From: Escherichia coli
Lineage (GTDB): Bacteria > Pseudomonadota > Gammaproteobacteria > Enterobacterales > Enterobacteriaceae
Length of the DNA stretch: 64,000 nt
Direction: 5' to 3' (one strand)
Assembly: GCA_025544715.1 (NCBI GenBank)
Contig: GCA_025544715.1_4109.3
Position numbers and translations under genes: made by a program. This document shows, in pieces, positions 2-61,496 of this stretch (positions within the stretch are counted from its first letter, which is position 1; each line of letters starts with the position of its first letter). The notes beneath the pieces were generated by a model. It was not told the origin of the DNA and made no database searches. It was given only the letters and a program-made list of their open reading frames with translations.

Positions 2-220
2 TTATTTTGAATTATACAAGCAGTACAGGTATACCAATGGAGTAAAATGTTCGGAATCTATTATATATATTAACTGAGTAACATATATTCCATATAGATC
101 TCGTGATTTATCTCTGTACATTAACAATGATTTATTTAAGTAAGGATCAACCCAGTACTTAATATCATTGTACTTCAACGTGTTGTTACGGTAACCTGAT
201 AGTTTTGAATTTTTATTCAA
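2..220 (-). CDS. hypothetical small protein (72 aa)
   Basis: Complete ORF with TAA stop at 2..4; C-terminal EHFxxLVxxYC motif shared with ORF 32687..32908. Confidence 0.4.
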   Translation of the reverse strand: MNKNSKLSGYRNNTLKYNDIKYWVDPYLNKSLLMYRDKSRDLYGIYVTQLIYIIDSEHFTPLVYLYCLYNSK

Positions 221-590
221 TTTTCTTACAATTACTCAGTAAGTGAATGATATCATCAGCAGTGAATGGTCCCAATACCAGAACTTCTTCACCATTACCG
301 AAAATGCTCAATGGTACTGATTGTTGACCAGCTAGATATTCAATTTGTTCCAGTTCGAAAATGTCATCAGCAGCATAAACTACCTGCTCCATTTCATTAT
401 CTTTAATCCATGACTGCCAATGTTCTTTAAACTTCTTAGCTTCGTATTCTTGAACATAGTTAGGTGATTCAGGGTTATATTGATGTAACATAGTCATCCC
501 AGCCATTACTAATTCTTTAGGGGATGGTGTAGAATCTTTCAGTACTACGATAGCTTGGATAGTTTTTACTTTAACGTCATTAGCAGCCAT
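213..590 (-). CDS. hypothetical protein (125 aa)
   Basis: ORF in same-strand operon; no motif recognised. Confidence 0.45.
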   Translation of the reverse strand: MAANDVKVKTIQAIVVLKDSTPSPKELVMAGMTMLHQYNPESPNYVQEYEAKKFKEHWQSWIKDNEMEQVVYAADDIFELEQIEYLAGQQSVPLSIFGNGEEVLVLGPFTADDIIHLLSNCKKIE

Positions 591-930: not shown

Positions 931-1407
931 TTATTTTAGAATATATAAGTGTTTTTCTGCATTGACCAGACGGTGATCAATGATTTCTTTGATAACGTTC
1001 CAGTTACCGCCGCCCAAATCGGCTCCAATTTTCGGGAAATGTACATGAACATCTCGATCAACTTTACAAAAATAATTTAGATGTTTGAACACATCGTCGA
1101 TTGCATCATAACTGACATATTTAGCACCGTCATTACCGTACATTTTTTGGGTAATACAGTTTGCAATAATCAAATTATCGTTAATTGCTGAATATGCAAT
1201 TTGTCCAATTCTAAGAAATCCCATTTCCTTTTCATATGCTTTATAATCATCATATGCCATTGGATAACGATTTCTTAGTTCTTTTGCAAAACCTGAACCC
1301 ATTTTACCCTGTGCGTTACAACCATGAGCAATTATATGTATTGCTGTTTTATCATCTGTTACAGTACTGAATAATTCAAACAGATTACCTCGGTGTTCAT
1401 GAATCAT
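931..1407 (-). CDS. macro-domain protein (ADP-ribose binding/processing)
   Basis: IIAHGCNAQGKMGSGFA and IGADLGGGNW resemble the two glycine-rich ADP-ribose-binding loops of macro domains. Confidence 0.55.
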   Translation of the reverse strand: MIHEHRGNLFELFSTVTDDKTAIHIIAHGCNAQGKMGSGFAKELRNRYPMAYDDYKAYEKEMGFLRIGQIAYSAINDNLIIANCITQKMYGNDGAKYVSYDAIDDVFKHLNYFCKVDRDVHVHFPKIGADLGGGNWNVIKEIIDHRLVNAEKHLYILK

Positions 1408-1425
1408 TATATTCTCCGAAAAGAA

Positions 1426-1449
1426 AGGACTCTGTGGTCAGAGTCCTTA
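1426..1449 (-). terminator. hairpin terminator after 1457..1714
   Basis: aggactctg/cagagtcct stem with T-run on the minus strand. Confidence 0.45.
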
Positions 1450-2237: not shown

Positions 2238-2639
2238 TTATTTCCTTCTATTTCTTTGAAAAGCTTTAACAGCTTTAATAATACTGTTACACATTCGTTC
2301 AGTCAAATACTTTTGACATTCTCGTACATCAATGTACATGAACTTATCCAATTCTGGATGACTCTTACCATATCTATTAGTGTAAGTACTTTTACAAACT
2401 AATTCATCTGGTATTGGTTTGTCTTTGGCAGTATAAAAGAAAAGTACTAACCTTTTTCCCTTTCTATAGGATACATCACCAAGAAACAGAAGATCATCTT
2501 CATCGATTTCGTATCCTGTCTCTTCGAAACATTCACGTACAGCAGCTTCTTTGAAAGTTTCATTACCCTCAGCTTTCCCTTTAGGTAAATCCCAATGATT
2601 CTGTCCGTGTTGTATGTCCGATAAGTATCTGACCATCAC
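2238..2639 (-). CDS. Nudix hydrolase (short N-terminus)
   Basis: Nudix box GKAEGNETFKEAAVRECFEETGYEI; track start is GTG with ATG one codon downstream; only about 14 residues precede the box. Confidence 0.65.
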   Translation of the reverse strand: MMVRYLSDIQHGQNHWDLPKGKAEGNETFKEAAVRECFEETGYEIDEDDLLFLGDVSYRKGKRLVLFFYTAKDKPIPDELVCKSTYTNRYGKSHPELDKFMYIDVRECQKYLTERMCNSIIKAVKAFQRNRRK

Positions 2640-2746
2640 GATAAAATATTATACCACAACTATAACGCATATCTTATCTCTTTGTCATCAATCGATGTTC
2701 AGATACTAATAATTATATCAGTTATTGGTTTTTTGTCCCACTATTT

Positions 2747-3859
2747 TTAGAACATTTGTTTGATTGCTTCGTAACGAAGTTCACAAACAAAATCACGAAT
2801 TTCTGACGTTTCAAGTTCACCATCTTTAACCATTTGCTGAATATCAGGTAATTCAACATCAGTATAACGATCATAAACTTTAATAATTAGATCTTCAAGT
2901 TCTAAATCAATTTCTTTTCGCAAAATGAAGTATTCCAAAACTTTATAAAGGAATTCTTCACCTCCGTTATTTTTAATATTCATATCCAATAAAATATTAC
3001 CCATTTCAATTGGGGTCTTTTTACGGAATGTTTTGATATCATCACGGAAACGTTTGATATAATTACTAAATTTAACATACTTAACTGGAACTTTAATAGC
3101 ACCGTTAAGTACTGAATCATTATTTACTTCTTCATTTTCTAGAAGAATAGACCACAGAAAATATGGTTTATATACATCAGTACAGTTATCTGAAATATAA
3201 TCAATAAGGTCTAAATTCTTTTTGGTCAAAGATGTATTAAACACCTTTTCGTAATAACCAAATTTACTTAGCGTCTTAAGGAACTTTGAAGGCTTTTCTT
3301 CAGAAAATGCTTTTTCGAATTCCACAAAAACACGGTCAGGAACAAGATGATTTAGCTCACCACTATTGACCATTCCAATAGCGAGTTCCTCAGTGCTTTC
3401 ATGAATAGTAAAGTCTGAATAACGAGTAGCAAATCGAGCAAGACGTAACACGCGTAATGGATCTTCTTTAAAATGGTCAGAAACATGACGTAGTACCTTG
3501 TTCTTGATATCAGCTTTACCACCGTATGGATCGATGTGAATTTGTAGTACTGGATCATACGCAATTGCATTAATTGTAAGGTCACGGCGATACAAATCTT
3601 GTTCTAGTGTTACGCCTTTTGTATCCACTTCAAAGCCACCATATCCAGTACCAGTTTTACGCTCAGTACGGGCTAATGCGTGTTCATTACCTTCTGGACT
3701 TAGATATACTGGGAAATCCTTACCTACTTGCTTATAGCCAATACTTTGCAAGTACTTAAGATCAGATTCGGATGCACCAACAATGACATAATCTTTGTCT
3801 TTTGCACGAAGACCCATTAAACGGTCACGGACGTAACCGCCAACCAAATACTTTTTCAT
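2747..3859 (-). CDS. cca: CCA-adding tRNA nucleotidyltransferase
   Basis: N-terminal GGYVRDRLMG...DKDYVIVG head-domain motif of class II tRNA nucleotidyltransferases; 370 aa. Confidence 0.75.
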   Translation of the reverse strand: MKKYLVGGYVRDRLMGLRAKDKDYVIVGASESDLKYLQSIGYKQVGKDFPVYLSPEGNEHALARTERKTGTGYGGFEVDTKGVTLEQDLYRRDLTINAIAYDPVLQIHIDPYGGKADIKNKVLRHVSDHFKEDPLRVLRLARFATRYSDFTIHESTEELAIGMVNSGELNHLVPDRVFVEFEKAFSEEKPSKFLKTLSKFGYYEKVFNTSLTKKNLDLIDYISDNCTDVYKPYFLWSILLENEEVNNDSVLNGAIKVPVKYVKFSNYIKRFRDDIKTFRKKTPIEMGNILLDMNIKNNGGEEFLYKVLEYFILRKEIDLELEDLIIKVYDRYTDVELPDIQQMVKDGELETSEIRDFVCELRYEAIKQMF

Positions 3860-5420: not shown

Positions 5421-5447
5421 AGAAAAGGGACAGAATTAATCTGTCCC
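5421..5447 (-). terminator. hairpin terminator after hpf-like gene
   Basis: gggacag/ctgtccc stem, 7-nt loop, short T-run on minus strand. Confidence 0.4.
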
Positions 5448-5458
5448 TTTAGTCTATA

Positions 5459-5791
5459 TTACTCTTCGTTTTCTGTCAAATCATCAAGAACTGGGTGTTC
5501 TGGATGGTTTCGGCGGTGTAATTTAATGCTTTTGTCTTTACTGAATACAGTTTCCATCTTATCAAAAGATTCAACAATTGCTTTATACAAATCAGCATCA
5601 TCAGCAGTGACTGATTTACTACCAGCAGTTAAAGTTACAGCATATTGAGTTTTATGCTCTTTCTTAACATGAACACCAATGTCTAGTACTGAAGAAGTAC
5701 GGTACTTATCCAGACTTTTTGCTTCATTGTAAATAGCATCTTGGATTGCTGGAGTGATATCAACGTTGCCTTGAATATTTAGATTTAGCAT
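5459..5791 (-). CDS. hpf: ribosome hibernation factor (HPF/RaiA family) homolog
   Basis: MLNLNIQGNVDITPAIQDAI and DLYKAIVESFDKME resemble the N-terminus and helix of YfiA/HPF; strong AAGGAAGGTGA RBS. Confidence 0.6.
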   Translation of the reverse strand: MLNLNIQGNVDITPAIQDAIYNEAKSLDKYRTSSVLDIGVHVKKEHKTQYAVTLTAGSKSVTADDADLYKAIVESFDKMETVFSKDKSIKLHRRNHPEHPVLDDLTENEE

Positions 5792-38420: not shown

Positions 38421-38723
38421 TTACATATTTGGTTCGTATTCAACATAGCAACGTGAACCTCGAACCTTTTCTTCCCAGCACTCCTGGTAAACAAGTTGAC
38501 CAATTGAAACTGGTTCTCTTGATAGTCCATTACGTACTTCACCACTTTGGGTTTTATACATGAATGAACATTTGGACTCGCTACATTGTCCTAAACTAAC
38601 AACTTCTGCGGTATTGTAGTGAATGTTGGTACGCTTAGTGTTCTCGTGATACTGTCCGAACCAAAGAACTCCTGCACCTAACAGAACAGTACAAATAAGA
38701 CTTTTAATGTGTGTTTGAATCAT
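38421..38723 (-). CDS. exported/membrane-anchored protein (100 aa)
   Basis: N-terminal hydrophobic segment; Cys-rich. Confidence 0.45.
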   Translation of the reverse strand: MIQTHIKSLICTVLLGAGVLWFGQYHENTKRTNIHYNTAEVVSLGQCSESKCSFMYKTQSGEVRNGLSREPVSIGQLVYQECWEEKVRGSRCYVEYEPNM

Positions 38724-39040
38724 AATGCGTTAAATCCATTGTTTAAGTATGTTTCAATATTAATTTTACCAACAGGATTACTACTGTGAACAAAGTACTC
38801 AAACGGTTCTTTAATATTATTATCAAACATATAATCAATAAGAAACTTAGCAAAAGAATATCCAGTCTTTTCGTCTTCGCTCACATCACCCAAGTCATGG
38901 TCGAATGATACAAATGCTGGAATTCCATTTTCAATAACATATTCACATGCACTTTTAAAGTCACGACATACCACCATATCTTGGTTTGGATAATATAGAT
39001 TTGCATCACGAATATCATCCAAAAACATTGAGTAAGACAT
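38720..39040 (-). CDS. hypothetical protein (106 aa), co-transcribed with Nudix/Sir2
   Basis: ORF overlapping upstream gene by 4 nt; no motif recognised. Confidence 0.45.
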   Translation of the reverse strand: MSYSMFLDDIRDANLYYPNQDMVVCRDFKSACEYVIENGIPAFVSFDHDLGDVSEDEKTGYSFAKFLIDYMFDNNIKEPFEYFVHSSNPVGKINIETYLNNGFNAL

Positions 39041-39049
39041 GTTAAACTC

Positions 39050-39601
39050 CTATAGATAACTAATTAGTAAGTTTTCTTTTTGAACCAGATACTCCAATTC
39101 TTGTTTTGCTGTACCGATGAAGTTCTGTGTCATAAGATTATTATATCCCGCTTCTCGATTTTGTCCCTTAGAATAACGAGAAATATGACATAAATTTACA
39201 CCAGCAACTTCAGCACTCGCATGTTTAGCATTAGTGTATCCATCTCTAATGTGTTTCAACTCGTCATAGCTTACTTCATAGCTAAAACTATGACTGTTTG
39301 CACCTGGGTAAATTTCAAAAGTTTTGAGTGGTCGGAGATGGGAAACAAAAATATTGTAATCCATTTCTTCTTGAACTTCACGACGCAATGCATCTTCTAA
39401 TGAGATATCAGTACTTTCTACGGTTCCACCACATCCACCAAGAAGACCATCCCATCGTAATTGTAGTAAAACTAAATTTACTTCTGGTATATCATTCAAC
39501 TCATAGTTTTTGTAAGGGTTGCATTTTCTTGCAAAGAAATAACAAAATACAAAATTTGCACGTGAGCCATATTCACCAAAGGGAACTTCTTTAACACTCA
39601 T
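39050..39601 (-). CDS. Nudix hydrolase (183 aa)
   Basis: Nudix box GGCGGTVESTDISLEDALRREVQEEM; ATGA overlap with Sir2 gene. Confidence 0.55.
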   Translation of the reverse strand: MSVKEVPFGEYGSRANFVFCYFFARKCNPYKNYELNDIPEVNLVLLQLRWDGLLGGCGGTVESTDISLEDALRREVQEEMDYNIFVSHLRPLKTFEIYPGANSHSFSYEVSYDELKHIRDGYTNAKHASAEVAGVNLCHISRYSKGQNREAGYNNLMTQNFIGTAKQELEYLVQKENLLISYL

Positions 39602-40356
39602 TTCATACGTTCCTTAATTATAGTCTCTAGATGTGGTATTGCTTTGGTTGCTGGCTTGATAACTTTTTCATTAAACAAAAAATCATTATCATTTTTACGA
39701 ATGTTAACATTAACACTATAACATGGCAATGCTGCTGCTAATCTCGACCATACCAGTACTGTATCGCTACTACCAATTACAATAACTGTATCATTTTCAT
39801 TAAGAGATTTCAACACATTATTTCGTTCTTCGTAAATTGGTAAGCGAATACCATCAACATAACGATGATATTCTCCAATCATTACTACATTTGGTTTAGC
39901 AAAAACATCATGCTTTGGTATGTATGGTTCGTATCCGCAGTTAATAACATTATAATCATCGGAATTAATACTATAATTTTCAATAACTTCGCACAAGTTT
40001 CCATGAAGTTTAAGCTCATGACCACCAATACGAGTATAAAGATCATCCATGTTAGAAGTCATATGAAGGAAGCAATCACCATATTGATCTTCTAACGATT
40101 TTATAAAATAATGCATTGCATTGGGTTCGCATTGTCCCAATTTTACACGTAATGTATTATAGAAGGAATGAACAACGTGATATTTTGTAGTTAAACTAGC
40201 AATGTTACATACATCATTAATTTTAAATGTATCCCACAAACCATCATCAAATCGAAAAGGTTCCATACCACTTTCAACGGAAAGTCCTGCACCTGATATA
40301 ATCAGTAATCGTTTTTTACCTTCATTGCTTATAAATTTTTCTGATATCATATTCAA
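39598..40356 (-). CDS. Sir2-family (sirtuin-fold) NAD-binding protein
   Basis: ISGAGLSVESGMEPFR (GAGIS..SG.P.FR) and SNMDDLYTRIGGHELKLHG (NxDxL...LHG catalytic His); no zinc-ribbon CxxC pairs seen. Confidence 0.6.
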   Translation of the reverse strand: MNMISEKFISNEGKKRLLIISGAGLSVESGMEPFRFDDGLWDTFKINDVCNIASLTTKYHVVHSFYNTLRVKLGQCEPNAMHYFIKSLEDQYGDCFLHMTSNMDDLYTRIGGHELKLHGNLCEVIENYSINSDDYNVINCGYEPYIPKHDVFAKPNVVMIGEYHRYVDGIRLPIYEERNNVLKSLNENDTVIVIGSSDTVLVWSRLAAALPCYSVNVNIRKNDNDFLFNEKVIKPATKAIPHLETIIKERMK

Positions 40357-60806: not shown

Positions 60807-61496
60807 TTATTTCCACCAACTGGTATCACGTCCATTAGACAAAGATTCATTGTACTGTCGTCTGAAATTTGTTTCAGGGTTATTATTCATTGTACTAATG
60901 AAATTAAATTTAGTAACTTCTTGGATATATCTAATAACACTATCTTTAAATTTAATAGTACTGAAATCTAAATCCAAATGTTCATAAGATACTGGATGAC
61001 AAAACTCATGTGTACGCAACGATGGCATGGTATCCTTAATGTATTGCACAGTGTTAATCATTGCATTGTATTCCGGCATAGCACGCATCATCATTAGCTG
61101 AAAGTGTTCTTCCTCTGACATTGACTCATCCAAATCAATAACGACTTCATCATTTTTAGAGTCATAAACTTTAATGGTACTCTTGGTTGGATCAAGCATA
61201 GCCCACTCTGGATACAGGCATGTTTTCCAAAAAGGATTATTGCACTGAAACATACTAATGAGATTTTGATCTTTATCAAAAATAGCAAATCCAAGATCCG
61301 AACTTGGTTGTACTTCACATACACAAATATCGTAAGACGAGTCTTCAGTACTGAGTGAACCAACTACATTTGATATATGTGAATATGGAGTTTCTCTTGA
61401 CTCCAACTGAAATGTACTTTCAATTCGATTGATTTGTGGATGTAATGTAATTACACCCCTTAGTACATATAAAATTCTATCTAAATCTTTAATCAA
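60807..61496 (-). CDS. hypothetical protein (229 aa)
   Basis: ORF. Confidence 0.45.
   Translation of the reverse strand: MIKDLDRILYVLRGVITLHPQINRIESTFQLESRETPYSHISNVVGSLSTEDSSYDICVCEVQPSSDLGFAIFDKDQNLISMFQCNNPFWKTCLYPEWAMLDPTKSTIKVYDSKNDEVVIDLDESMSEEEHFQLMMMRAMPEYNAMINTVQYIKDTMPSLRTHEFCHPVSYEHLDLDFSTIKFKDSVIRYIQEVTKFNFISTMNNNPETNFRRQYNESLSNGRDTSWWK

What the first reader, a model, noticed from the sequence alone, without database searches (positions are those of the whole stretch)
931..1407. Macro-domain protein in an early-gene operon
The two glycine-rich loops typical of ADP-ribose-binding macro domains are present. Phage macro domains can reverse ADP-ribosylation of DNA or protein or process ADP-ribose derivatives, complementing the Sir2/Nudix genes.
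Basis: partly seen in the sequence, partly recalled or inferred. Interest (0 to 1): 0.5.

Follow-up and report, generated by a model that had tools for sequence, protein, structure and literature searches.

The report
Phage macrodomain, Tk.4/AdfM-type ADP-ribose eraser
This is a real but already annotated macrodomain gene of a 121Q-like jumbo coliphage; it most likely strips ADP-ribose off thymine in phage DNA to defeat the bacterial DarTG2 defence, as its T4 homologue Tk.4/AdfM does, so it is ordinary.

Summary
Window 931-1407 (minus strand) is a 158-aa ORF with two Gly-rich loops. AlphaFold2 gives a confident model (pLDDT 95) that matches solved macrodomains: BT1257, SCO6735, Poa1p, DarG and TARG1. 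The window is 99.3% identical to Escherichia phage 121Q, where this gene (gp544) is already annotated as macro domain-containing.

New here is the subclass. The protein has Gln87 where DarG, PhiKZ AdfM and TARG1 have the catalytic Lys. T4 Tk.4, SCO6735 and BT1257 share this Gln, and it is invariant in 69 homologues. SCO6735 removes ADP-ribose from thymine in ssDNA and uracil in RNA. T4 Tk.4 (AdfM) is required for T4 to resist DarTG2.

Best reading: an orphan, antitoxin-like T/U-ADP-ribose glycohydrolase that counters DarT2. This is inferred, not shown.

Main rival: processing of small ADP-ribose derivatives from a predicted Sir2-Nudix-cREC RNA-repair cluster, which lies 38 kb away.

"Early operon" is unsupported. 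A conserved terminator-like hairpin sits directly before the gene, and no timing data exist.

Seen in passing: the Nudix gene upstream carries a conserved apparent +1 frameshift at a CGG codon that neighbouring genes never use.

The parts
931..1407 (-). Macrodomain CDS (158 aa, stop codon included); orthologue of 121Q gp544
   Evidence: ORF list; 99.3% DNA identity to 121Q, where it is annotated 'macro domain-containing protein'; AF2 and Foldseek macro fold
1315..1326 (-). H28-G-C-N31 motif at the end of strand beta-2. It corresponds to SCO6735 His24...Asn27 and to DarG Asn22 / PhiKZ AdfM Asn23
   Evidence: H28, G29 and N31 are invariant in 69 homologues; alignment map; residue roles from PMC9411070 and PMC13309987
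1291..1308 (-). Gly-rich loop 1, G34-K-M-G-S-G39 (substrate-binding loop)
   Evidence: Read from the sequence; G34, M36 and G39 conserved
1147..1149 (-). Gln87 codon, at the position of the catalytic Lys of DarG (K80), PhiKZ AdfM (K78) and TARG1 (K84). It equals the essential Gln85 of SCO6735 and the Gln of T4 Tk.4
   Evidence: Invariant in alignment A1; MAFFT map; SCO6735 Q85A/E mutants are inactive (PMC9411070)
1006..1026 (-). Gly-rich loop 2, G128-A-D-L-G-G-G134 (diphosphate-binding loop). Gly132 replaces TARG1 Asp125
   Evidence: Read from the sequence; P125 and G128 invariant, G133 and G134 at least 90% conserved; alignment map
1414..1417 (-). Shine-Dalgarno GGAG, 6 nt upstream of the ATG
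   Evidence: Read from the sequence
1425..1448 (-). Conserved 10-bp stem-loop followed by UCUUUUC, between gene 543 and the macro gene. Terminator-like or an RNA-stability element
   Evidence: Terminator scan; dG -16 kcal/mol, z -4.1; kept in Klebsiella relatives with the inner stem changed on both sides
2712..2739 (-). Best candidate upstream promoter (GGGACA, 16 nt, TG-n-TATAAT), in the only long intergenic gap (107 nt) upstream of the Nudix-Grx-542-543-macro run
   Evidence: Consensus scan and intergenic map. Consensus match only; function not shown

Best explanation
The gene encodes a single-domain macrodomain of the ALC1-like (TARG1/DarG) class. It belongs to the glutamine-type subclass typified by Streptomyces SCO6735, Bacteroides BT1257 and T4 Tk.4 (AdfM).

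Proposed mechanism, by inference from those relatives:
- The cleft formed by the two Gly-rich loops binds the ADP-ribose moiety.
- His28, Asn31 and Gln87 position the distal ribose and a water molecule.
- The N-glycosidic bond between ADP-ribose and N3 of thymine in single-stranded DNA is hydrolysed. The same may apply to uracil in RNA. Free ADP-ribose is released.

During infection this would erase the thymine ADP-ribosylation that the host DarT2 toxin places on replicating phage DNA. The protein would thus act as an orphan antitoxin against DarTG2. Direct inhibition of DarT2 by binding, as reported for SCO6735, is also possible.

Shown here: the fold, the class and the catalytic-residue constellation. 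Inferred: substrate, host target and timing.
For: - Fold: AF2 pLDDT 95, pTM 0.91. Foldseek against PDB ranks BT1257 first (TM 0.84), then Poa1p, SCO6735, DarG and TARG1. Foldseek against BFVD ranks a T4-like Tk.4 first (TM 0.83).
- Sequence: BT1257 8e-16 and SCO6735 8e-12. The family profile gives 5e-27 and 3e-21.
- T4 Tk.4 shares 30% identity over 123 aa, E 2e-12, and falls in the same phrog_335.
- The only defence-related or NCBIfam model hit is DarG.
- Residue map: Gln87 = Gln of Tk.4 = SCO6735 Gln85 = Gln of BT1257. His28 and Asn31 are conserved. All three are invariant across 69 homologues down to 38% identity.
- Literature: SCO6735 cleaves T-linked ADPr-DNA, rescues cells from DarT toxicity and needs Gln85 (PMC9411070). 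It also cleaves U-ADPr in RNA (PMC13036486).
- Literature: T4 tk.4 was the single hit needed for resistance to DarTG2, and a clean knockout is sensitised (bioRxiv 10.1101/2025.11.20.689424). This agrees with T4 lacking adfA and adfN still resisting DarTG2 (PMC11825919).
- Literature: PhiKZ AdfM removes ADPr from DarT2-modified DNA (PMC13309987).
Against: - No activity, phenotype or expression data exist for this protein or for any Asteriusvirus orthologue.
- Identity to the tested proteins is only 24-33%.
- SCO6735 Lys34, whose K34E mutant nearly abolishes DNA activity, is Ser38 here and in Tk.4. Lys35 is nearby.
- The T4 evidence is genetic and from a preprint. Biochemistry on T-ADPr has not been reported for any phage Gln-type member.
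- The gene is not in a variable anti-defence islet. Its position in a CCA-enzyme / Nudix / Grx / PTH2 block next to neck and sheath genes is conserved out to Klebsiella and Xanthomonas jumbo phages. That fits a housekeeping or RNA-linked role at least as well.
- Iyer et al. argue that most phage Macro domains target small ADPr derivatives.
Confidence: 0.55

Rival explanations
1. The protein processes small ADP-ribose derivatives within phage RNA repair. The phage's Sir2 (predicted to act like KptA), cREC and Nudt16-like Nudix would produce ADPr>P, then ADPr-1''-phosphate, while cleaning 2'-phosphate RNA ends. O-acyl-ADPr is another possible product. The macrodomain would dephosphorylate or deacylate these to ADP-ribose, as yeast Poa1p does, and a Nudix enzyme would then degrade the ADP-ribose.
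For: - A Sir2 - Nudt16-like Nudix - cREC cluster is in the window (38720-40356).
- RNA ligase, PNK and a CCA-adding enzyme are also encoded.
- This sirtuin clade is predicted to act like KptA in jumbo phages, and Macro domains are listed as ADPr-1''P processors (PMC9503650).
- Poa1p is the third-best structural match and scores 3e-16 with the family profile.
- The macro gene sits beside CCA-enzyme, Nudix and PTH2-like genes in a conserved block.
Against: - At the diagnostic position Poa1p has Ser (LFTS), not Gln. Its loop 2 (NSGIFGVPW, containing Phe152) differs from GADLGGGNW, and the Poa1p Ser30 position is Lys35 here.
- The protein is much closer to SCO6735 and BT1257 than to Poa1p (8e-16 against 9e-7).
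- The Sir2 cluster is 38 kb away, and published analysis says it is not coupled to an adjacent Macro gene.
- To my knowledge T4 has no Sir2, yet it carries Tk.4.
- No KptA/Tpt1 is annotated in the parts of the 121Q genome I read.
- The T4-type Pnk/Rnl pathway leaves no 2'-phosphate (established knowledge).
Confidence: 0.2
2. The protein repairs RNA. It would remove uracil-linked ADP-ribose from phage or host tRNA, mRNA or rRNA that has been modified by host ART toxins, protecting translation rather than DNA replication.
For: - SCO6735, the biochemically closest enzyme, cleaves U-ADPr in ssRNA efficiently (PMC13036486).
- The gene neighbourhood is translation- and tRNA-themed and conserved: HPF/RaiA, CCA-adding enzyme, PTH2-like, and YqeY in XaC1.
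Against: - No bacterial anti-phage ART that modifies uracil in RNA is known.
- CmdT modifies adenine, and that modification is described as irreversible.
- SCO6735 is inactive on 2'-OH-linked RNA ADPr and, in the results of the same study, on 5'-phosphate-linked ADPr (PMC11833690).
- Neighbourhood themes in jumbo phages are weak evidence, because structural and metabolic genes are interleaved throughout 121Q.
Confidence: 0.12
3. The protein removes mono-ADP-ribose from proteins (Glu/Asp-linked). The modification could be made by host ART toxins or by a phage ADP-ribosyltransferase of the Alt/Mod type.
For: - SCO6735 and TARG1 also hydrolyse Glu-linked protein ADPr (PMC5087735, listed; PMC9411070).
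- In one T4-like metagenomic contig an ADPrib_exo_Tox gene lies 2 kb from the homologous macro gene (L010).
- ARTs occur in more than 40% of jumbo phages.
Against: - No ART is annotated in 121Q positions 1-150 kb or 196.5-273 kb. The remaining third of the genome was not inspected.
- DarG-type relatives act on DNA only.
- The T4 Tk.4 knockout phenotype reported in that work is specific to DarTG2.
Confidence: 0.08
4. The protein is a non-catalytic binder, or a degrader, of ADPr-derived immune signals such as Thoeris His-ADPR or gcADPR. It would act as a sponge.
For: - Macro domains bind His-ADPR in type II Thoeris ThsA (bioRxiv 10.64898/2026.06.04.730250).
- Iyer et al. propose that phage Macro domains mainly counter small ADPr signals.
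Against: - All residues needed for catalysis in SCO6735 are invariant here.
- No phage macrodomain sponge was reported in the papers read.
- The closest relatives are enzymes.
Confidence: 0.05

Closest known systems
T4 Tk.4 = AdfM (anti-DarT factor Macrodomain; HIDEN-SEQ preprint 10.1101/2025.11.20.689424)
   Same: Single-domain phage macrodomain of about 155 aa. It is in the same phrog_335, shares 30% identity (E 2e-12), and has the same HGCN...TQ...P-[KR]-IG-x-x-[LI]-G-x-G-N-W constellation with Gln at the catalytic position. Both are encoded by virulent E. coli myoviruses.
   Different: The mobile loop after the Gln is longer here (QKMYGNDGAKY against QFQPGPNF), closer to SCO6735 and BT1257. 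The genomic context is unrelated: tk-vs-regB region in T4, CCA/Nudix/Grx/neck block here. The anti-DarTG2 phenotype has been tested only for T4.
Streptomyces coelicolor SCO6735 (PDB 5E3B) and Bacteroides BT1257 (PDB 2FG1)
   Same: These are the best sequence and structure matches (8e-16 and 8e-12; TM 0.84 and 0.76). Gln replaces the catalytic Lys, the His and Asn are conserved, and Asp125 of TARG1 is absent. SCO6735 hydrolyses T-ADPr DNA, U-ADPr RNA and Glu-ADPr protein.
   Different: They are bacterial chromosomal genes; SCO6735 is DNA-damage inducible. SCO6735 Lys34 is Ser38 here, and Val25 is Gly29. Identity is 24-25% in the structural alignments.
DarG antitoxin macrodomain (PDB 5M31/5M3E, 5M3I) and PhiKZ gp104 AdfM
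   Same: ALC1-like macro fold and a conserved Asn (N22 / N23 = N31). Weak hits to the DarG models. Likely the same substrate and biological target, DarT2-modified thymine.
   Different: Those proteins use a catalytic Lys in an FPTK motif; this one has Gln. DarG has a C-terminal DarT-binding domain and an adjacent darT gene; this protein has neither. PhiKZ gp104 scores 132.9 bits on the PADLOC DarG model against 39.2 here. BLASTP of gp104 against the window protein aligns only 26 residues.
Human TARG1/OARD1 (PDB 4J5Q-S)
   Same: ALC1-like fold with TM about 0.76. The His of the H-x-C-x motif is shared.
   Different: The TARG1 Lys84/Asp125 dyad is Gln87/Gly132 here, and TARG1 Ser35 is Asn31 here (TARG1 sequence verified).
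Yeast Poa1p (PDB 6LFQ-U), ADP-ribose-1''-phosphate phosphatase
   Same: Third-best structural match. The N-terminal half is very similar (IHSCNCNGSWGGG against AHGCNAQGKMGSG).
   Different: Ser at the Gln position. A different loop 2 containing Phe152. A longer protein with insertions.

Membership tests
Macrodomain superfamily | Three-layer alpha/beta/alpha macro fold with a mixed central sheet | tested here: met
   AF2 pLDDT 95, pTM 0.91. Foldseek: 232 PDB matches with E <= 1e-3, and nearly all of the top 50 are macrodomains.
Macrodomain superfamily | Two Gly-rich ADP-ribose-binding loops (after beta-2, and P-x-[IL]-G-x-G before the last long helix) | tested here: met
   GKMGSG (residues 34-39) and PKIGADLGGG (residues 125-134), conserved in 69 homologues.
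Macrodomain superfamily | Pfam PF01661 at or above its gathering score | tested here: not met
   16.4 bits against a cut-off of 22, E 0.009. This is a divergent subclass, and many homologues do carry PF01661.
ALC1-like class, Gln-type subclass (SCO6735/BT1257) | Gln at the position of DarG Lys80 / TARG1 Lys84, and no TARG1-type Asp125 | tested here: met
   Q87 aligns with SCO6735 Q85 and G132 aligns with TARG1 D125. Q87 is invariant.
ALC1-like class, Gln-type subclass (SCO6735/BT1257) | Conserved equivalents of His24 and Asn27 | tested here: met
   H28 and N31 are invariant.
ALC1-like class, Gln-type subclass (SCO6735/BT1257) | DNA-positioning Lys34, and a long mobile loop with Lys89 and Lys94 | tested here: inconclusive
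   The Lys34 position is Ser38, with Lys35 three residues earlier. The loop is only 1-2 residues shorter than in SCO6735 and carries K88 and K96.
ALC1-like class, Gln-type subclass (SCO6735/BT1257) | Hydrolysis of thymine-linked ADP-ribose on ssDNA | not testable with these tools
   Needs a biochemical assay.
Phage AdfM (anti-DarT factor, macrodomain) | Homology to a validated AdfM (T4 Tk.4, or PhiKZ gp104) | tested here: met
   Tk.4: E 2e-12, 30% identity. Same phrog_335 as both Tk.4 and gp104. Against gp104 itself only a 26-residue local match.
Phage AdfM (anti-DarT factor, macrodomain) | Protects the phage from DarTG2 and removes DarT2-made ADPr from DNA | not testable with these tools
   Genetic or biochemical test required.
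DarG antitoxin (type II TA) | Catalytic Lys in an FPTK motif | tested here: not met
   The motif here is CITQ.
DarG antitoxin (type II TA) | C-terminal DarT-binding domain, an adjacent darT gene, and the NCBIfam equivalog score | tested here: not met
   The protein is 158 aa with a single domain. Its neighbours are 85-aa and 105-aa ORFs with no ART hit. NF048014 scores 32.9 bits against a cut-off of 250.
Poa1p-like ADPr-1''-P phosphatase | Poa1p active-site residues probed by the deposited mutants (His23, Ser30, Phe152) | tested here: not met
   The His is conserved (H28). The Ser30 position is Lys35. The loop containing Phe152 is replaced by GADLGGG. Poa1p has Ser at the Q87 position.
MacroD-type (YmdB/MacroD1/CoV Mac1) | Closest structural and sequence neighbours are MacroD-type | tested here: not met
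   CoV Mac1 and YmdB rank below all ALC1-like hits, at 12-16% identity. No MacroD-type entry appears in the profile search against PDB.

The most novel reading that the evidence does not exclude
The Gln-type macrodomain of Rak2/121Q-like jumbo phages may not primarily be an anti-DarT2 factor. Instead it could be a fixed component of a conserved translation and tRNA-maintenance module (HPF, CCA-adding enzyme, recoded Nudix, Grx, PTH2-like). In that role it would erase uracil-linked ADP-ribose from RNA, or process ADPr-1''-phosphate made by the phage's own sirtuin-based RNA-repair system. If so, the Tk.4/SCO6735 subclass has an RNA-directed role in phage infection.
Probability: 0.2. Interest if true: 0.55.

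Novelty: already known. Interest (0 to 1): 0.22.

Why it matters
As a macrodomain call it adds little. The gene is already labelled this way in GenBank/RefSeq for 121Q, ph0011, Sharanji and others. Macro domains are present in about 56% of jumbo phages (PMC9503650). Homologues occur in about 1,800-2,750 phage records.

The modest added value is the subclass assignment. This protein and T4 Tk.4/AdfM share the glutamine-type active site of SCO6735. PhiKZ AdfM has the DarG lysine-type site. Phages therefore seem to have recruited two mechanistically different macrodomains under the one name 'AdfM'. That gives a concrete prediction for jumbo coliphages considered for therapy: 121Q-like phages should resist DarTG2, and resistance should depend on Gln87.

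Tried and rejected
- Pfam alone was inconclusive for the macro gene: the Macro model scored below its threshold.
- DarG membership was considered and rejected. There is no catalytic Lys, no C-terminal domain and no darT neighbour, and the score is far below the cut-off.
- A Poa1p-type phosphatase was considered and down-weighted on active-site differences.
- A MacroD-type O-acetyl-ADPr deacetylase paired with Sir2 was considered and down-weighted. The fold class is ALC1-like, and the Sir2 gene is 38 kb away and belongs to a clade predicted for RNA repair.
- I looked for expression-timing data in papers on 121Q, phAPEC6, CBB, PA5oct, Sharanji and fEgEco12. None bears on this gene.
- I looked for T4-type late promoters. 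TATAAATA occurs 3 times in the window against 12.9 expected, and the ATAAATA motif proposed for CBB/GAP32 is absent from the minus strand of the first 9 kb.
- Sigma-70-like hits are not enriched, so timing stays open.
- I read the 121Q annotation for partner ART, NADAR or KptA genes over 1-150 kb and 196.5-273 kb and found none. Positions 150-196.5 kb and 273-348.5 kb were not inspected.

Full report
**1. What is there**

Window 931-1407 holds a 158-aa ORF on the minus strand, with an ATG at 1407 and a GGAG ribosome-binding site at 1414-1417. The two glycine-rich loops are real: GKMGSG (residues 34-39, window 1291-1308) and GADLGGG (residues 128-134, window 1006-1026).

The window itself is a 121Q-like jumbo coliphage (Asteriusvirus). 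Its first 4.5 kb are 99.3% identical to Escherichia phage 121Q. There the ORF is gene 544, annotated 'macro domain-containing protein / Appr-1-p processing domain protein'. A 100% identical protein is encoded by Salmonella phage SD-1_S14.

**2. Is it a macrodomain?**

Yes.
- The generic Pfam Macro model is sub-threshold (16.4 bits against 22).
- phrog_335 matches at 1e-45.
- PDB sequences match at 8e-16 (BT1257), 8e-12 (SCO6735) and 9e-7 (Poa1p).
- A profile of 69 homologues reaches 5e-27 to 3e-11 for BT1257, SCO6735, Poa1p, DarG and TARG1.
- AlphaFold2 on that alignment gives pLDDT 95 and pTM 0.91.
- Foldseek against the PDB returns BT1257 first (TM 0.84), then Poa1p, SCO6735, Thermus DarG and TARG1. 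Coronavirus Mac1 and YmdB come after these.
- Against predicted viral structures the top hit is the Tk.4 protein of a T4-like phage (TM 0.83).

The protein belongs to the ALC1-like (TARG1/DarG) class, not the MacroD class.

**3. Which kind of ALC1-like macrodomain?**

I aligned the protein with T4 Tk.4, PhiKZ gp104, two DarG macrodomains, BT1257, SCO6735 and TARG1.

- The catalytic Lys of DarG (K80), PhiKZ AdfM (K78) and TARG1 (K84) is Gln87 here. The same Gln is found in T4 Tk.4, BT1257 and SCO6735 (Gln85).
- TARG1 Asp125 is Gly132 here.
- His28 and Asn31 match SCO6735 His24 and Asn27.
- H28, G29, N31, G39, Q87, P125 and G128 are invariant across the 69 homologues, which go down to 38% identity.
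- Poa1p has Ser at the Gln position and a different second loop.

For SCO6735, Gln85 is essential. The enzyme removes ADP-ribose from thymine in ssDNA, rescues cells from DarT and also inhibits DarT by binding (PMC9411070). It also removes uracil-linked ADP-ribose from RNA (PMC13036486). It does not act on 2'-OH-linked RNA ADP-ribose (PMC11833690).

One difference: SCO6735 Lys34, important for DNA positioning, is Ser38 here and in Tk.4.

**4. Link to phage biology**

- T4 Tk.4 is a homologue: 30% identity over 123 residues, E 2e-12, in the same PHROG.
- A 2025 preprint found tk.4 to be the single T4 gene needed to resist DarTG2. It showed that a clean knockout is sensitised and named the gene adfM.
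- This fits the earlier observation that T4 lacking adfA and adfN still resists DarTG2 (PMC11825919).
- Independently, PhiKZ gp104 was named AdfM and shown biochemically to remove DarT2-made ADP-ribose from DNA (PMC13309987).
- gp104 is a true DarG-type protein with an FPTK motif. It scores 132.9 bits on the PADLOC DarG model, against 39.2 for the window protein and 36.0 for Tk.4. By BLASTP it aligns with the window protein over only 26 residues.

The two proteins called 'AdfM' therefore have different active sites, and the window protein is of the T4/SCO6735 glutamine type.

The family is very common. tblastn finds homologues in 1,792 phage records with the window protein and in 2,751 with Tk.4. 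A published survey finds Macro domains in 56% of jumbo phages.

**5. Context and the 'early operon' claim**

The gene lies in a long, tightly packed, co-directional run on the minus strand. In order it reads: LysM lysozyme, HPF/RaiA, several small ORFs, CCA-adding enzyme, Nudix, glutaredoxin, two small ORFs, macro, a small ORF, a PTH2-like ORF, then neck, dNMP kinase, sheath and tube.

This order is conserved in Klebsiella Rak2-like phages (63% protein identity) and in Xanthomonas phage XaC1 (47%). In T4-like contigs the context is unrelated. The gene is thus a stably inherited part of this jumbo-phage lineage rather than a cargo gene in a variable islet.

Transcription signals:
- The only sizeable intergenic gap upstream (107 nt, before the Nudix gene) has two extended -10 elements.
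- Sigma-70-like matches are not enriched over shuffles in the region (35 against 38.8 +/- 6.3).
- A 10-bp stem-loop followed by UCUUUUC lies 17 nt before the macro start codon (1425-1448; dG -16 kcal/mol, z -4.1).
- That stem-loop is conserved in Klebsiella relatives with compensatory changes in the inner stem.
- No transcriptome exists for this phage group in the papers I searched.

'Early' is therefore unproven. It is also not diagnostic, because PhiKZ AdfM is expressed late.

**6. The Sir2/Nudix idea**

The window does encode a true sirtuin (PF02146), a Nudt16-like Nudix and a cREC protein at 38720-40356. Iyer et al. describe this cluster type in jumbo phages. They predict a KptA-like RNA-repair role that would generate ADPr>P and ADPr-1''-P, and they note that it is not coupled to an adjacent Macro gene.

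A macrodomain could in principle finish that pathway, and Poa1p is a good structural match. The active-site comparison favours SCO6735/Tk.4 over Poa1p. The genes are 38 kb apart. To my knowledge T4 has no Sir2 but does have Tk.4. I keep this as the main rival (about 0.2).

**7. Verdict**

- The DarT-reversal suggestion is the best-supported function, by homology only (confidence about 0.55).
- The 'early operon' label and the Sir2/Nudix link are unsupported.
- Nothing about the gene is categorically new, and it is already annotated.
- The useful refinement is the Gln-type (SCO6735/Tk.4) assignment and the prediction that follows from it.

**8. Seen in passing**

The Nudix gene two genes upstream is interrupted by one extra nucleotide compared with intact orthologues in the Klebsiella and Xanthomonas phages.
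- The N-terminal 21 codons (MRYSCGIIFYRDGQILIGHTT, ATG at 2670) are in one frame. The rest, including the Nudix box, is in the +1 frame.
- Skipping C2607 in ACA-ACA-C-GGA restores ...GHTTGQNHWDLPKGK..., which matches the orthologues.
- The interruption is shared by three E. coli Asteriusviruses that differ by 11-14% in DNA.
- All five substitutions upstream of the site are synonymous in the first frame. Those downstream are mostly synonymous in the second frame.
- The in-frame codon at the site, CGG, is used 0 times in 1,992 codons of 13 neighbouring genes.

This pattern suggests programmed +1 frameshifting at a 'hungry' codon, and it deserves its own follow-up.

Noticed in passing
window 2581-2670, minus strand (Nudix gene, 121Q gene 540; annotated CDS 2238-2636/2639): Apparent conserved +1 frameshift in the Nudix gene.
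- The ATG at 2670 opens MRYSCGIIFYRDGQILIGHTT in one frame, which stops at 2583-2581. The Nudix box continues in the +1 frame.
- Skipping C2607 in ACA-ACA-C-GGA (2613-2604) restores ...GHTTGQNHWDLPKGK..., as in the unshifted Klebsiella and Xanthomonas orthologues.
- The interruption is shared by ph0011 and WPEC5.
- Substitutions are synonymous in the first frame upstream of the site (5 of 5) and mostly synonymous in the second frame downstream.
- The CGG codon at the site is used 0 times in 1,992 neighbouring codons.
This is a candidate programmed +1 ribosomal frameshift. Public annotations start the gene at an internal ATG or GTG.
   Followed up: partly
window 38720-40356, minus strand: A three-gene cluster: Sir2 (PF02146, 3.7e-20), a Nudt16-like Nudix (PF22327, 1.3e-18) and a cREC 'cyclic-phosphate processing receiver' domain protein (PF20274, 1.5e-22). 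It matches the sirtuin-centred, KptA-like RNA-repair system predicted for jumbo phages by Iyer et al. 2022. According to the 121Q annotation, RNA ligase, PNK and DNA ligase genes lie elsewhere in the window.
   Followed up: partly
window 1425-1448 and 5424-5450, minus strand: Two look-alike intergenic modules. Each is a stable GC-rich stem-loop (dG -16 and -20 kcal/mol, z -4.1 and -4.7) followed at once by UCUU(U/A)U, then GGAG, then a start codon 6-10 nt later (6 nt at the macro gene, about 10 nt at gene 534). They lie upstream of the macro gene and of gene 534. The first is conserved with compensatory stem changes in Klebsiella relatives. They could be terminators or attenuators, or 5'-end protective hairpins.
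   Followed up: partly
window 213-590, minus strand (121Q gene 546): This small ORF downstream of the macro gene is annotated 'aminoacyl-tRNA hydrolase' in phage ph0011. Its Klebsiella and XaC1 orthologues have weak PTH2 (peptidyl-tRNA hydrolase 2) hits. Pfam on the window copy gave only sub-threshold hits. Together with HPF/RaiA (5459-5791) and the CCA-adding enzyme (2747-3859), it gives the block a translation and tRNA theme.
   Followed up: no
whole window, both strands: The T4 late-promoter octamer TATAAATA is depleted: 3 matches against 12.9 +/- 3.8 expected from shuffles. The ATAAATA motif proposed as a late promoter for the relatives CBB and GAP32 is absent from the minus strand of the first 9 kb.
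   Followed up: no
L002 (T4 60922-61389) and L004 (PhiKZ 107517-108005): Two proteins independently named 'AdfM' in 2025-2026 have different active-site types. T4 Tk.4 has Gln (SCO6735-like). PhiKZ gp104 has the DarG FPTK Lys. PHROG 335 lumps both types together under the label 'phosphatase'.
   Followed up: yes
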